The notes under the pieces were generated by a model. That model saw nothing but the letters and a program-made list of their open reading frames with translations. It had not been told where the DNA came from and did not search any database. Of a DNA stretch of 64,000 bases, positions 17,866 through 64,000 are shown in pieces. Numbering within the stretch: position 1 is the stretch's first letter; each line of letters begins with the position of its first letter. The DNA is taken from positions 461-64,460 of the IMG/VR virus record IMGVR_UViG_3300046171_000068; one strand, written 5' to 3'. Both the position numbers and the translations under genes were made by a program. This DNA is from a virus (taxonomy: Duplodnaviria; Caudoviricetes).

Positions 17866-18738
17866 TTATTTTTTATTATAATTTTTACAGGCTTCGCTAA
17901 AGGTTTCTATAAATTCGTAAAATTTTACAGCTAACGACCCATAAGAACATCCTTTTGGATGTTTTTTAGCTAACTTTATCAAATATTCTATTGCTTCCAT
18001 CTTATCTTTTTTATTATCGAACTGTCTCATAAAGCAACCAAGGTCTGAAGATAAAGTATAAAGCTCAGAATCCCCAAAATATGAAACTCTATTCCTTACA
18101 ACACCTCTTAAGTACCCTTTCCTTTTTTCATAATCTGTTGTTTCTGTGTGATAAATAACAGTATTTATAAACCTTTCTATAACTTCTTTTTTTTCTTCAA
18201 AAGTTTCTTTTTCAACAATTTGTTCTAAGATATTTTCTGATGTATCTATTGATTCATATATTCTTTCTATAGAATGTTTTTCTGTTAATCTTTTTATAGT
18301 ATTTAACCCGACTTTATTAATCTTTATTGTTAATCCATATTCAGAAAATAATTTTTCCATAAATTTTTTTATCTTTGTTGGAATAAAGTTTTTAGATTTT
18401 AATTTTTTTTCTTGTTTTTCTAAATCTTTCTGTATCTTTATTTTTTCTTCTTGTAATTTTTTTATGGTTTTCTTTTTTGTTTCTAGTATTTTTATTTCAC
18501 CAGGCATTTTATCTGATTTACCTTGATTACATGTTTCGCAAGTGGCTCTTAAATTAGAGAACTCTGATTTGCCTCCATGTTTTACAGGAATTATATGGTC
18601 GATTACCAGCTTAACATCAGGGGCCTTAGCTCCGCAATCACAACAAGTAAAGTTATCTCTTACTAAAACGTCATGCCTTAACCCAGGCCTAATGTATCTT
18701 GGATTACTTTTATTCATCTCCAATCTTAGATAAAGCAC
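17866..18738 (-). CDS. HNH endonuclease with long C-terminal extension
   Basis: RDNFTCCDCG...IDHIIPVKHGG...NLRATCETCNQGK. Confidence 0.85.
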   Translation of the reverse strand: MLYLRLEMNKSNPRYIRPGLRHDVLVRDNFTCCDCGAKAPDVKLVIDHIIPVKHGGKSEFSNLRATCETCNQGKSDKMPGEIKILETKKKTIKKLQEEKIKIQKDLEKQEKKLKSKNFIPTKIKKFMEKLFSEYGLTIKINKVGLNTIKRLTEKHSIERIYESIDTSENILEQIVEKETFEEKKEVIERFINTVIYHTETTDYEKRKGYLRGVVRNRVSYFGDSELYTLSSDLGCFMRQFDNKKDKMEAIEYLIKLAKKHPKGCSYGSLAVKFYEFIETFSEACKNYNKK

Positions 18739-27340: not shown

Positions 27341-27367
27341 CACCTAGGCAAGTGGATAAACTGCCTA
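27341..27367 (+). ncRNA. Candidate 3'-UTR pseudoknot motif, copy 2
   Basis: CAC-C-TAGGCA-A-GTG-GATAAAC-TGCCTA. Confidence 0.55.
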
Positions 27368-27550
27368 ACGTTCTAATATTATAATATTCTAATATTCCTG
27401 CTCCGCAGTAAACCATCTCGGCCCTGCGGGCCTCGACCCCCCATGACGTGTGTCCGCATATATATATATTCTCTCCACACAGCGGAGGGGAAATATGTTC
27501 TATACTAACACTACTTACTGACACTCATATAGCTAAAAAAAATTTGAAAA

Positions 27551-27597
27551 ACACAACATATAGTTGCAAAAAGAAAAAAAATCACTATACTTAGTGG
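27551..27597. promoter_or_regulatory. Tandem NrdR-like boxes overlapping candidate terL promoter
   Basis: ACACAACATATAGTTG (27551) and TCACTATACTTAGTGG (27582), 31 bp apart; TTGCAA-16-TATACT at 27564-27591. Confidence 0.6.
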
Positions 27598-27606
27598 TGG
27601 ATAACT

Positions 27607-29031
27607 ATGTCTACTGAAACTCAAAGAATAGAAGAGATACTATCCACCCTTAAAAAGCGTCAAGAGACTAATCGTCTTAACTACTATCAGCCCTATAGAT
27701 TTCAGCTTGATTTTCATGAAGCAGGTAAGCAGGCCAATCAAAGATTATTGATGGCGGCCAACAGGGTTGGCAAATCATTTGTAGGCGCTATGGAGATGTC
27801 TATTCATCTCACAGGAGAATATCCTGAATGGTGGAAGGGAAAAAAATTTAAAGAGCCTATTAAGGCTTGGGTTTGTGGTGCGAGTAATGAAACCACAAGA
27901 GACATATGCCAAAAAGAATTGTTCGGGCAACCCGACAACCCAAGAGACAGGGGAAAAGGTTCCATCCCTAAACATCTCATTGGTGAAACTACAAGGAAAC
28001 CTGGAGTACCAAATGCACACTCGTCAGTCCTTGTTAAACATAAAAGCGGTGGGTGGTCGAGAGTTGCCTTTAAGGCCTATGAAATGGGTGCTGAAAAATT
28101 TATGGGGGAGAGTATTGATTTAGTATGGCTAGACGAAGAACCACCACAAGACATATATTCGCAGTGTATTACAAGAACATTAGACAGGCGTGGACAAGTT
28201 TATTTAACATTCACACCCGAATCGGGAATGACAGAAGTCGTACAGAACTTTACAAGCGATTTAAAGCCAGCTCAGGCCCTAATCACTGCAGGCTGGAATG
28301 ATGCAGACCATCTAACAGAAGATATGAAAGAGCAGATATTAAGTGCTCTACCACCTCATGAAAGAGAAATGAGGTCTAAAGGGATACCTATGGTAGGGTC
28401 AGGCTTAGTATTTCCAGTATTAGAAGATAATTTGGCCTGTGAGCCCTTTACCATACCCCCTCATTTTAGTCGTATTGCAGGCCTCGATTTTGGATATGAC
28501 CATCCTACAGCAGTTGTATGGATAGCATGGGATAGAGATGAAGATATTGTGTACGTTTATGATGTCTACAAGATGTCGAAACAAACACCTGACTATCATG
28601 CCAGTCATATCAATGAGCGTGAGGGAAGTCATTACATACCGATTGTATGGCCACATGATGGATACCAGCATGATAAAGGAAGCGGTATAACACTAGCAGA
28701 ACAATACAGAACGGCACATGTCAACATGTTGCCATTTCACTTTGAGAACCCACCTGCATTAGGTGAGAAGAAAGGGGGTAATAGTGTTGAGGCTGGAATC
28801 ATGGACATGCTGACTCGTATGGAATCAGGCAAGTTTAAAGTATTTAATACTTGTACTGAATGGTTTCAAGAATACAGATTGTATCATCGTAAAGATGGCA
28901 AGATAGTAAAGATTAAAGATGACTTGATGTCAGCAACACGTTATGCTGCAATGAGTCTAAGACACAGTACAACAGAGACATCTAAGTGGAATAGTAAAGG
29001 TAGACTAGGCCCAGATGTAGCGATAGTTTAG
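27607..29031 (+). CDS. terL: Terminase large subunit (P22-like)
   Basis: Walker A AANRVGKS, Walker B VWLDEEP, TFTP coupling motif, nuclease GLDFG...DDLMSATRYA. Confidence 0.95.
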   Translation: MSTETQRIEEILSTLKKRQETNRLNYYQPYRFQLDFHEAGKQANQRLLMAANRVGKSFVGAMEMSIHLTGEYPEWWKGKKFKEPIKAWVCGASNETTRDICQKELFGQPDNPRDRGKGSIPKHLIGETTRKPGVPNAHSSVLVKHKSGGWSRVAFKAYEMGAEKFMGESIDLVWLDEEPPQDIYSQCITRTLDRRGQVYLTFTPESGMTEVVQNFTSDLKPAQALITAGWNDADHLTEDMKEQILSALPPHEREMRSKGIPMVGSGLVFPVLEDNLACEPFTIPPHFSRIAGLDFGYDHPTAVVWIAWDRDEDIVYVYDVYKMSKQTPDYHASHINEREGSHYIPIVWPHDGYQHDKGSGITLAEQYRTAHVNMLPFHFENPPALGEKKGGNSVEAGIMDMLTRMESGKFKVFNTCTEWFQEYRLYHRKDGKIVKIKDDLMSATRYAAMSLRHSTTETSKWNSKGRLGPDVAIV

Positions 29032-63882: not shown

Positions 63883-63909
63883 CACCTAGGCATGTGATTA
63901 AACTGCCTA
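63883..63909 (+). ncRNA. Candidate 3'-UTR pseudoknot motif, copy 3
   Basis: CAC-C-TAGGCA-T-GTG-ATTAAAC-TGCCTA. Confidence 0.55.
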
Positions 63910-64000
63910 ATATTATAATATTAGAATATGCTAATATGCCTGCTCCGCAGTAAACCATCTCGGCCCTGCGGGCCTCGACCCCCCATGACGTGTGTCCGCA

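What the first reader, a model, noticed from the sequence alone, without database searches (positions are those of the whole stretch)
27520..27606. Tandem NrdR-like boxes in front of terL: morphogenesis possibly gated by host dNTP status
Seen: ACACAACATATAGTTG (27551) and TCACTATACTTAGTGG (27582) start 31 bp apart and overlap the -35 and -10 of TTGCAA-16-TATACT. A degenerate third site (GACACTCATATAGCTA) lies another 31 bp upstream at 27520. Known: NrdR binds paired 16-bp boxes (acaCwAtATaTwGtgt) about 31-32 bp apart and represses when loaded with dATP/ATP; its usual targets are ribonucleotide reductase genes, and this phage encodes none that I can recognise. Inference: the late operon (terL-portal-capsid-tail) stays repressed while dNTPs are plentiful and switches on when phage replication drains them, a host-sensor replication-to-packaging timer. 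Caveat: seen once here (B's copy is beyond the window) and the implied leader is very short.
Basis: partly seen in the sequence, partly recalled or inferred. Interest (0 to 1): 0.8.

Follow-up and report, generated by a model that had tools for sequence, protein, structure and literature searches.

The report
NrdR operator on phage terL promoter
A marine phage carries a well-formed pair of binding sites for NrdR, the bacterial sensor of DNA-precursor levels, directly over the promoter of its DNA-packaging and virion genes, which probably ties virion production to the host's dNTP state; binding has not been tested.

Summary
Boxes at 27551 and 27582 start 31 bp apart (15-bp linker) and cover the -35 and -10 of TTGCAA-16-TATACT, 16 nt before the terL ATG.

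- **Score:** I built a weight matrix from 46 NrdR boxes upstream of bacterial RNR genes. The pair scores 28.6 bits, the median of those bacterial pairs. It is the best pair in the window (next 14.7), and 0 of 500 shuffles reach it.
- **Published criteria:** Both boxes meet every experimentally critical requirement in PMC13584703 (C4, G13, A6, T11, at least 63% AT, 15-16 bp linker).
- **Third site:** 27520 scores at background. It is a decayed relic of a distal box that relatives keep.
- **Relatives:** 35 of 80 loci carry a pair heading the packaging operon, mostly at -87/-56 and not at -56/-25. At least 23 have other promoter cassettes with no boxes.
- **Phage genes:** no NrdR or RNR gene was found.
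- **Host:** unknown, so its nrdR could not be checked.

Best reading (0.6): a host-NrdR operator repressing the late promoter. The dNTP timer is inference.

An IMG/VR pattern scan found at least 116 contigs with perfect-core pairs, most often next to portal or terminase genes. This scan has noted similar operators on other phage DNA before. My literature searches found no paper describing it.

The parts
27551..27566 (.). NrdR box 1 (promoter-proximal in relatives, at -56 from the ATG): ACACAACATATAGTTG. Its last three bases are the start of the -35.
   Evidence: 17.9 bits on the bacterial-box matrix (those boxes: median 14.2) and the best single site in the window. C4, A6, A8, T9, T11 and G13 are all present, with 88% AT between C4 and G13. 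In 24 distinct relatives' sequences only positions 1, 7, 10, 12 vary, plus position 11 in 2 of 24.
27567..27581 (.). 15-bp linker between the boxes; holds the rest of the -35 and an A-run.
   Evidence: Sequence. A 15-16 bp linker is the published optimum (PMC12051234, PMC13584703).
27582..27597 (.). NrdR box 2 (at -25): TCACTATACTTAGTGG. It contains the -10 and ends at the predicted start site.
   Evidence: 10.7 bits, inside the range of bacterial boxes (5.1-21.1). C4, A6, T11 and G13 are present. The middle dinucleotide is AC instead of AT; changes at positions 8 and 9 were tolerated in PMC13584703. It passes the strict criteria. It is present only in the window's clade, 7 of 54 relatives.
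27520..27535 (.). Relic of the distal (-87) box: GACACTCATATAGCTA.
   Evidence: -4.9 bits. It sits at the position where 24 relatives have a box. C lies at position 3, giving a 9-bp C-G distance, and T is at position 6. Whether it keeps weak function is open.
27564..27591 (+). Sigma-70-type promoter TTGCAA-16-TATACT of the packaging and virion operon.
   Evidence: Promoter scan, 9 of 12 matches. A -35/-10 pair at the same distance from the ATG occurs in every promoter cassette of the relatives.
27596..27601 (+). Shine-Dalgarno-like GGTGGA, 5 nt before the ATG. The predicted transcript start is at about 27597-27599.
   Evidence: GGTGGATAACT is invariant in 24 distinct relatives' sequences (entropy 0 at -9..-1). 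The start site is inferred from the -10 position only.
27607..29031 (+). terL (474 aa), first gene of the rightward packaging, portal, scaffold, capsid and tail block.
   Evidence: 61% identical to the annotated terminase large subunit of Pelagibacter phage Baldr. Portal, scaffold and major head protein follow.
27469..27491 (+). Weak terminator-like hairpin upstream of the promoter.
   Evidence: Terminator scan. Relatives L002-L004 and L028 have a cleaner hairpin plus T-run directly upstream of box 1 (my reading).

Best explanation
The terL promoter of this roughly 37.5-kb marine podophage carries an operator for the host repressor NrdR: two 16-bp boxes with a 15-bp linker covering the -35 and -10.

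An NrdR tetramer loaded with ATP plus dATP would sit on both boxes and block host sigma-70 RNA polymerase. The packaging and virion operon would then be held off from the moment the DNA enters the cell, with no phage-made repressor needed. Release would come when dATP falls relative to ATP, when replicated phage genomes outnumber the repressor, or both. Late transcription would follow DNA replication.

**Shown:** the sites, their quality, their position on the promoter, and their partial conservation with kept spacing.

**Inferred:** that NrdR binds them, that the host has NrdR, and the timing logic.
For: 1. **Matrix test.** The matrix came from 46 boxes (23 of 59 RNR-upstream loci of unnamed Alpha- and Gammaproteobacteria). 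The pair scores 28.6 bits against a median of 28.6 for those bacterial pairs (range 14.5-41.0). It is the best pair in the window, and 0 of 500 shuffles reach it.
2. **Published criteria.** Both boxes meet every requirement found critical by mutagenesis: C4 and G13 with 8 bp between them, A6, T11, at least 63% AT between, two boxes, 15-16 bp linker (PMC13584703, section 4 parts 1-2 read). Box 1 differs from that paper's high-affinity synthetic box at positions 10 and 15 only. Changing 10 had no effect there; 15 was not tested.
3. **Relatives.** 31 of 54 loci with a placeable start have their best pair on this promoter (19.1-35.7 bits; second best in the locus at most 11.6). 4 of the 26 loci first left out also have one (24.1-30.1 bits).
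4. **Two geometries.** Pairs sit at -87/-56 in 24 loci and at -56/-25 in 7 loci plus the window. Both have 31-32 bp spacing and both keep the box on the -35.
5. **Substitution pattern.** In box 1 across 24 distinct sequences, variation falls at positions 1, 7, 10 and 12. Positions 7 and 10 are the ones the mutational study found unimportant.
6. **One operator per genome.** In complete relatives G441 and G442 it is the only strong pair (26.3 against 14.7; 22.3 against 10.8).
7. **No phage copy of the regulator.** No NrdR or ATP-cone in the window or in 5 complete relatives. No recognisable transcription factor in the 20 early ORFs scanned, apart from two weak Q-like hits.
8. **Other phages.** A perfect-core pair pattern hit at least 116 IMG/VR stretches. 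Of 20 nearest ORFs that I chose, 9 are head or packaging genes (6 portals from 4 PHROG families, plus terL, terS and scaffold) and 2 are NrdD.
9. **Literature.** NrdR binds DNA with ATP plus dATP but not with ATP alone (PMC12051234, abstract and passages). The pneumococcal NrdR regulon rises strongly in lytic phage infection (PMC6755750, abstract and one legend).
Against: - The host is unknown, so the presence of nrdR is unverified.
- No binding or expression data exist.
- Each box alone is within chance: a site of at least 16.3 bits appears in 27 of 500 shuffles.
- Box 2 scores only 10 bits, ranks 12th among single sites in the window, and owes part of its match to the -10 hexamer. Box 1's last three bases are fixed by the -35.
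- By the strict criteria only 16 of 55 promoters (window included) have two passing boxes.
- 11 promoters have one passing box. In 10 of them the partner has G one place early, a 7-bp C-G distance; in L017 the partner has C at position 6. A 7-bp distance abolished binding in an E. coli nrdEF mutant (PMC13584703).
- 27 of 55 have no passing box, so the control is dispensable in this lineage.
- The relatives are not independent. The two geometries may reflect a single change.
- The nearest cultured pelagiphages, HTVC106P and Baldr, have no pair (best 10.9 and 15.1 bits).
Confidence: 0.6

Rival explanations
1. The same sites bind NrdR, but their main role is as a decoy. Replicating phage genomes soak up NrdR and so derepress the host's ribonucleotide reductase genes, feeding a phage that has no RNR of its own. 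The position on the terL promoter would then be secondary.
For: - The phage has no RNR gene and I recognised no DNA polymerase among the ORFs scanned. It therefore depends on host dNTP supply.
- The host NrdR regulon does rise during lytic infection in pneumococcus (PMC6755750).
- This reading is compatible with all the site-quality evidence.
Against: - There is only one operator per genome.
- In both geometries one box always sits on the -35. A pure decoy could lie anywhere.
- In other phages the pairs sit directly in front of portal or terminase genes, 6-78 nt before the start in 8 of the 9 head or packaging cases sampled and 215 nt in the ninth.
- This rival is not exclusive of the main reading.
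Confidence: 0.12
2. The boxes are the operator or activator site of some other protein, phage-encoded or host, that recognises a CAC-N8-GTG palindrome. The likeness to NrdR boxes would be convergent.
For: - In about 10 relatives the distal site is CACAAGATGTG-type. This is a palindrome with a shorter C-G distance that should not bind NrdR (PMC13584703).
- Box centres at about -39.5 and -70.5 from the inferred start are also typical activator positions (established knowledge, recalled).
- Most early ORFs have no known function.
Against: - The sites fit a matrix made only from bacterial NrdR boxes as well as the median bacterial site does.
- The variable positions match NrdR's tolerated positions.
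- The 31-32 bp spacing is kept through a change of partner box.
- No other copy of the motif exists in the genome. That would be unusual for a phage repressor, which normally has several operators.
- The same motif pair precedes morphogenesis genes in unrelated phages.
Confidence: 0.13
3. There is no operator. The pair is a by-product of an AT-rich sigma-70 promoter (TATA-rich -10, TTG of the -35) plus shared ancestry among the relatives.
For: - Single boxes are within chance.
- Promoter hexamers contribute matched positions to both boxes.
- 23 of 54 relatives do without boxes.
Against: - 0 of 500 shuffles reach the pair score.
- The other promoter cassettes of this lineage, which have -35 and -10 hexamers in the same place, score -26 to +0.6 bits at these positions.
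- The distal -87 boxes in relatives lie outside the promoter hexamers and are the best boxes of all, up to 20.2 bits. L025's distal box is identical over 16 of 16 bases to the published synthetic high-affinity box (PMC13584703).
Confidence: 0.1

Closest known systems
NrdR operators of bacterial ribonucleotide reductase promoters (E. coli and Salmonella nrdAB, nrdHIEF, nrdDG; S. coelicolor nrdAB, nrdRJ; Listeria nrdAB, nrdDG)
   Same: - Two partly palindromic 16-bp boxes.
- 15-16 bp linker.
- C4, A6, T11 and G13 present, with an AT-rich core.
- Boxes overlap core promoter elements; the -10 is overlapped in Salmonella nrdAB and nrdHIEF (PMC2892513 passages).
- Matrix score equal to the median of bacterial sites.
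   Different: - The gene controlled is a phage terminase and virion operon, not an RNR gene.
- The element sits on a phage that has neither RNR nor NrdR.
- Binding is untested.
- The partner box has moved between -87 and -25 within one lineage.
Phage promoters controlled by another host repressor, LexA
   Same: A phage places the operator of a host stress or metabolite-sensing repressor on its own promoter, so it reads a host signal without making its own sensor.
   Different: The sensor is different (DNA damage against the dATP/ATP ratio). The LexA cases mostly control lysogeny or lysis decisions, not a late morphogenesis operon of an apparently lytic phage.
Replication-coupled late transcription of phage T4
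   Same: Late gene expression is made dependent on ongoing phage DNA replication.
   Different: T4 does this with its own late sigma factor and the sliding clamp as a mobile activator. Here the proposed coupling is by release or titration of a host repressor that senses the dNTP pool.
Earlier notes of this scan on other phages (e1-5846596, e1-5611331): NrdR pairs on head, packaging or late-sigma promoters
   Same: Same motif pair and same class of downstream genes. My own IMG/VR sample agrees in part.
   Different: These are other, unrelated phages. They are AI notes, not publications. Here the lineage also shows box turnover and optional promoter cassettes.

Membership tests
NrdR operator (NrdR-box pair) | Two 16-bp boxes are present; a single box does not bind (PMC13584703). 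| tested here: met
   Boxes at 27551 and 27582. Both pass the strict criteria.
NrdR operator (NrdR-box pair) | Linker of 15-16 bp (31-32 bp start to start), or one helical turn more. | tested here: met
   The linker is 15 bp (27567-27581). Relatives have 31 or 32 bp start to start. In vivo repression works at 15-17 bp (PMC12051234).
NrdR operator (NrdR-box pair) | C4 and G13 with 8 bp between them; 9 bp tolerated in one box only. | tested here: met
   Both window boxes have C4 and G13. The relic at 27520 has a 9-bp distance and fails the strict test.
NrdR operator (NrdR-box pair) | A6 and T11 present, and at least 63% AT between C4 and G13. | tested here: met
   Both boxes have A6, T11 and 7 of 8 AT. 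Box 2 has a middle AC; changes at positions 8 and 9 were tolerated in PMC13584703.
NrdR operator (NrdR-box pair) | Score comparable with bona fide sites and above genome background. | tested here: met
   The pair scores 28.6 bits, equal to the median of 23 bacterial pairs. The next best pair in the window scores 14.7. 0 of 500 shuffles reach it.
NrdR operator (NrdR-box pair) | Conserved in relatives. | tested here: inconclusive
   35 of 80 loci have a pair of at least 19 bits heading the packaging operon. 16 of 55 promoters pass the strict two-box test and 27 of 55 have no passing box.
NrdR operator (NrdR-box pair) | The organism in which it acts encodes NrdR. | not testable with these tools
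   The host is unknown: the best isolate matches are pelagiphages at 61% (TerL) and 44.7% (portal). NrdR was over cut-off in 342 of 401 sampled unnamed Alphaproteobacteria (the tally includes unpublished G244 and G045). It occurs in 77% of bacterial genomes according to PMC13584703.
NrdR operator (NrdR-box pair) | Nucleotide-dependent binding of NrdR (ATP plus dATP) and nrdR-dependent repression. | not testable with these tools
   This needs MST or EMSA and reporter assays.
NrdR operator (NrdR-box pair) | Lies upstream of a ribonucleotide reductase operon (the usual target, not a binding requirement). | tested here: not met
   The downstream gene is terL. There is no RNR gene in the record.

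The most novel reading that the evidence does not exclude
Gating of virion and packaging promoters by the host's dNTP sensor NrdR is a widespread phage strategy that arose several times independently. It would give a replication- or dNTP-coupled late switch that needs no phage-encoded regulator. In this abundant marine lineage it travels as a swappable promoter cassette whose partner box can relocate while the 31-32 bp phasing is kept.
Probability: 0.45. Interest if true: 0.8.

Novelty: new variant of a known kind. Interest (0 to 1): 0.65.

Why it matters
How small phages that lack their own sigma factors, RNA polymerase or known activators delay virion genes until DNA has been replicated is poorly understood. 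This is especially so for the abundant uncultured marine phages.

A host NrdR operator on the terL promoter would give a simple and testable answer: the phage reads the cell's dATP/ATP sensor. It would also extend the NrdR regulon beyond ribonucleotide reductase genes.

It gives a host clue, since the host should encode nrdR. It also yields a compact, nucleotide-responsive promoter cassette that can be tested in E. coli, because NrdR proteins bind heterologous boxes (PMC13584703).

My sample of IMG/VR suggests the arrangement recurs in front of portal and terminase genes of unrelated phages. The point may therefore be general.

Tried and rejected
- **Rfam and ARAGORN on the window:** 0 families, 0 tRNAs.
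- **GC-rich element 27392-27496:** the fold is not better than shuffles (z -1.19, 20 of 200 shuffles fold as well). Not pursued.
- **Host identification.** The genome-contig scan with TerL gave only 39-50% identical prophage-like hits (14 loci), so no host. The phages collection gave only distant isolates. I did not try to name the unnamed G genomes.
- **Metatranscriptomes.** Four RNA runs from 3 studies (X15-X18, kept as contigs) hold terL pieces. They show no transcript start, and one contig runs across the promoter region. No conclusion on expression or on the start site.
- **Matrix of the phage's own -56 box on the window:** no second site (next best 15.5 against 23.2 bits).
- **G443,** a relative without boxes: its best pair (17.8 bits) lies inside a 323-aa ORF and I take it as chance.
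- **Named isolates with a pair in front of portal:** blastn of L174 and L238 against the phages collection gave no match and two unannotated records.
- **Association of boxes with a particular phage gene:** not attempted. Box-bearing genomes are also the closest relatives, so the test would be confounded.
- **Literature.** Searches 'NrdR + phage + NrdR box', 'NrdR + bacteriophage + regulon', 'NrdR + terminase', 'NrdR + phage genomes + ribonucleotide reductase' and 'NrdR + SAR11' found no paper placing NrdR boxes on phage late or packaging promoters. Supplements were closed and may hold site lists I could not see.

Full report
**What the DNA is.** The window is bases 461-64460 of a single 64,460-base IMG/VR virus record. 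A self-comparison shows two related but distinct genomes of about 37.5 kb, 67-97% identical, joined head to tail. The second copy of the region upstream of terL begins at 63883-64000 (matching 27341-27458 at 92%) and runs off the end.

The ORF at 27607-29031 is the large terminase. It is 61% identical to the annotated TerL of Pelagibacter phage Baldr. Portal, scaffold, major head and tail-fibre genes follow on the same strand.

The early region holds a Sak-like annealing protein, a YqaJ-like nuclease, an HNH endonuclease and many ORFs of unknown function. I saw no recognisable transcription factor there apart from two weak Q-like hits. No NrdR, ATP-cone or RNR family is found.

**The observation.** All quoted sequences are at the quoted places. 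Box 1 (27551-27566) ends in the TTG of the -35 (27564-27569). Box 2 (27582-27597) contains the -10 TATACT (27586-27591). The linker is 15 bp and the ATG lies 16 nt after the -10.

One box on its own is no more than chance. The pair is. It is the only consensus-level pair in 64 kb, and 3 of 300 shuffles hold one.

- The best consensus pairs upstream of these genes have 31 or 32 bp spacing in most cases: 17 of the 27 gammaproteobacterial loci that had any pair.
- 23 of 59 loci gave a pair that I accepted: each box at least 10 of 16 matches, sum at least 22, spacing 31 or 32. One locus from an unpublished genome was left out.
- The resulting 46 boxes made the matrix.
- On it, bacterial boxes score 5.1-21.1 bits (median 14.2) and bacterial pairs 14.5-41.0 (median 28.6).
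- Box 1 scores 17.9 and is the best single site in the window. Box 2 scores 10.7. The site at 27520 scores -4.9.
- The pair scores 28.6 bits (26.3 on the window's own base composition). The next pair in the window scores 14.7. 0 of 500 dinucleotide shuffles reach 26.3; their maxima average 12.9 with sd 2.4 and a largest value of 23.0.

**Published requirements.** I read section 4, parts 1 and 2, of PMC13584703. Its findings:
- Two boxes are needed.
- The linker sequence is free, but its length should be 15-16 bp.
- C4 and G13 are critical with 8 bp between them. A 9-bp distance is tolerated in one box, and 7 bp abolished binding.
- A6 and T11 matter.
- A8 and T9 can be changed.
- At least 63% AT is needed between C4 and G13.
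- Positions 3, 5, 7, 10 and 14 hardly matter.

Both window boxes meet all of this. Box 1 differs from the paper's synthetic high-affinity box only at positions 10 and 15.

**Relatives.** TerL found 312 relatives in IMG/VR, and the best 80 (85-99% identical) were kept. For 54 of them I could place the start codon with enough upstream DNA.
- 31 of the 54 have their best pair on this promoter (19.1-35.7 bits), and the second-best pair anywhere in the locus is at most 11.6. 24 of these sit at -87/-56 or -88/-56, and 7 at -56/-25 like the window.
- 23 of the 54 have other promoter cassettes with no pair.
- Among the 26 loci first left out, L076 has a 30.1-bit pair whose proximal box overlaps a TTGACA.
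- L078, L080 and L081 have 24-26 bit pairs about 0.9 kb upstream of terL. In L081 the same promoter and ribosome-binding site first drive an inserted HNH endonuclease gene; I infer the same for L078 and L080 from the shared upstream sequence.

That makes 35 of 80 loci with a pair heading the packaging operon. Eight more loci hold too little upstream DNA to tell, and L040 shows only its -56 box.

By the strict mutational criteria the count is lower. Of 55 promoters including the window, 8 pass at -56 and -25, 8 pass at -87 and -56, 11 pass at -56 only, 1 passes at -87 only, and 27 have no passing box.

In 10 of the '-56 only' loci the distal site reads CACAAGATGTG or CACWACATGTG; in the eleventh, L017, it has C at position 6. 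Their C-G distance is 7 bp, which should not bind NrdR. I cannot explain these sites.

**Signs of selection on a pair.**
- The box on the -35 is the constant member. Its partner lies either 31-32 bp upstream or 31 bp downstream.
- The window's clade has the downstream partner, and at -87 only a decayed sequence at the homologous place.
- In 24 distinct sequences of box 1, positions 2-6, 8, 9 and 13-16 never vary. All variation falls at positions 1, 7, 10 and 12, plus position 11 in 2 of 24. This matches the tolerated positions of the mutational study.
- The relatives share ancestry, so these are not independent events.
- In the complete relatives G441 and G442 the promoter pair is the only strong pair in the genome.
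- None of five complete relatives encodes NrdR.

**The promoter.** Every cassette in the relatives, with or without boxes, has a -35/-10 pair ending about 15-17 nt before the ATG, followed by a conserved GGTGGATAACT-like ribosome site. The very short leader is therefore a family trait and not a reason for doubt.

Several relatives have a hairpin plus T-run directly upstream of box 1 (my reading). The window has a weak terminator-like site at 27469-27491. This fits an independent promoter at the head of the late block. Many contigs of relatives break within 150 nt upstream of terL. I read that as the junction between a conserved late module and a mosaic early module.

**Host.** The best cultured matches are pelagiphages (TerL 61%, portal 44.7%), which is too distant to name a host. 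Bacterial genomes gave only 39-50% identical prophage-like TerL genes.

NrdR is present in 5 of 5 of the five bacterial genomes I searched. It is over cut-off in 342 of 401 sampled unnamed Alphaproteobacteria (two unpublished genomes are in that tally). It occurs in 77% of bacterial genomes according to PMC13584703. The host's nrdR remains untested.

**Mechanism.** From PMC12051234 (abstract and passages): NrdR tetramers bind DNA when loaded with ATP plus dATP and not with ATP alone, and in vivo repression needs a 15-17 bp spacer (or 26 plus or minus 1). From PMC2892513 (passages): boxes overlap the -10 in Salmonella nrd promoters. From PMC6755750 (abstract and one figure legend): three pneumococcal transcripts preceded by NrdR sites rise strongly during lytic phage infection.

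Put together, NrdR already present in the cell would occlude the terL promoter on the incoming genome. Replication would release it, either by lowering dATP or by multiplying operators. This chain is inference, and no step of it was tested here.

I picked the nearest ORF in 20 of them, preferring longer ones, so the sample is not random. The PHROGs results were:

| Nearest ORF | Count of 20 |
|---|---|
| portal (four different portal families) | 6 |
| terL | 1 |
| terS | 1 |
| scaffold | 1 |
| HNH | 1 |
| tail fibre | 1 |
| NrdD | 2 |
| RusA | 1 |
| family of unknown function | 1 |
| no family | 5 |

Carrying these labels to all 80 loci by blastx within 1.5 kb of the pair matched 35 loci: portal 15, terL 2, terS 1, scaffold 2, HNH 2, NrdD 5, tail fibre 1, RusA 1, unannotated 6. 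The other 45 loci stayed unlabelled.

So perfect NrdR pairs in viral contigs stand next to head or packaging genes at least as often as next to RNR genes. A distant prophage-like element in Zavarzinia marina also has an NrdR-like box on a TTGACA upstream of a small ORF that precedes terL (21.7 bits, 0 of 300 shuffles). Earlier notes of this scan describe the same thing in other phages. These are AI notes, and I tested their claim only through the sample above. My five literature searches found no paper on it.

**Verdict.** By every sequence test available it is an NrdR-type operator on the late promoter. It is present in the window's clade and, in another geometry, in many relatives, but it is optional in the lineage.

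Membership in the NrdR-operator family is met on all sequence criteria. It is untested for binding and for the host's nrdR. It departs from the usual target gene.

I rate it a new variant of a known kind, with interest 0.65 and confidence 0.6 in NrdR-mediated repression of terL. The timer role is a reasonable but untested inference.

Noticed in passing
window 1-64000 (1-27458 against 36340-64000): The record is a head-to-tail join of two related but distinct genomes of about 37.5 kb, 67-97% identical block by block, with no host DNA between them. This could be a chimeric assembly of two strains or a true heterodimer.
   Followed up: partly
window 27392-27496: A GC-rich stretch of about 105 nt in an AT-rich intergenic region, flanked by an 18-nt inverted repeat (78% complementary). 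Its RNA fold is not better than shuffles (z -1.19). A related metatranscriptome contig carries several compensating-looking changes here, which I did not analyse.
   Followed up: partly
L002-L081, the 150 nt upstream of terL: The terL promoter is a hotspot of cassette exchange. At least five unrelated promoter cassettes occur in phages whose TerL is 85-99% identical, all keeping the same -10-to-ATG distance and ribosome site. Many contigs break within 150 nt of the terL start.
   Followed up: partly
L008-L011, L013-L016, L039, L041-L043, L046, L050, at -87 from the terL ATG: The distal site reads CACAAGATGTG or CACWACATGTG, followed by a conserved AATTCAATCTAAC linker. It is a perfect 8-3-8 palindrome in L016. 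The C-G distance of 7 bp should not bind NrdR according to PMC13584703, so its meaning is unknown.
   Followed up: no
L078, L080, L081 (L081: 2059-3025): In L081 an HNH endonuclease gene of 293 aa is inserted between the NrdR-boxed promoter and terL (shown for L081; L078 and L080 share the upstream sequence and pair position). It belongs to the same PHROG families as the window's HNH at 17866-18735 on the minus strand. It looks like a homing-endonuclease insertion into the head of the packaging operon.
   Followed up: partly
L088 2552-2700 (Zavarzinia marina, prophage-like region): The NrdR-like box CCCCAAGATATTGTTG overlaps a TTGACA, with a weak partner 31 bp downstream. A hairpin plus T-run follows, before a small ORF that precedes terL. 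The pair scores 21.7 bits and 0 of 300 shuffles reach it. The genome encodes NrdR.
   Followed up: partly
L169-L248 (IMG/VR loci from the pattern scan): At least 116 viral contigs carry a perfect-core NrdR pair. About ten loci share a portal-like ORF of 377-378 aa starting 6-9 nt after the pair. Only 5 of 80 loci could be tied to NrdD.
   Followed up: partly
window 27542-27547 (run X15, record 1): A contig from an RNA library matches both sides but has 140 other letters in place of 27543-27546, immediately upstream of box 1. This is another mosaic junction at the edge of the conserved cassette.
   Followed up: no
window 27570-27581 and relatives: An A-run of 7-9 bases in the promoter spacer, which is also the NrdR linker, is kept in nearly all box-bearing relatives even though the linker sequence should be free for NrdR. 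Its role is unknown.
   Followed up: no
PMC8790148, gene table: [quoted passage not shown] Phages may therefore also bring the regulator. None is present in this record.
   Followed up: no
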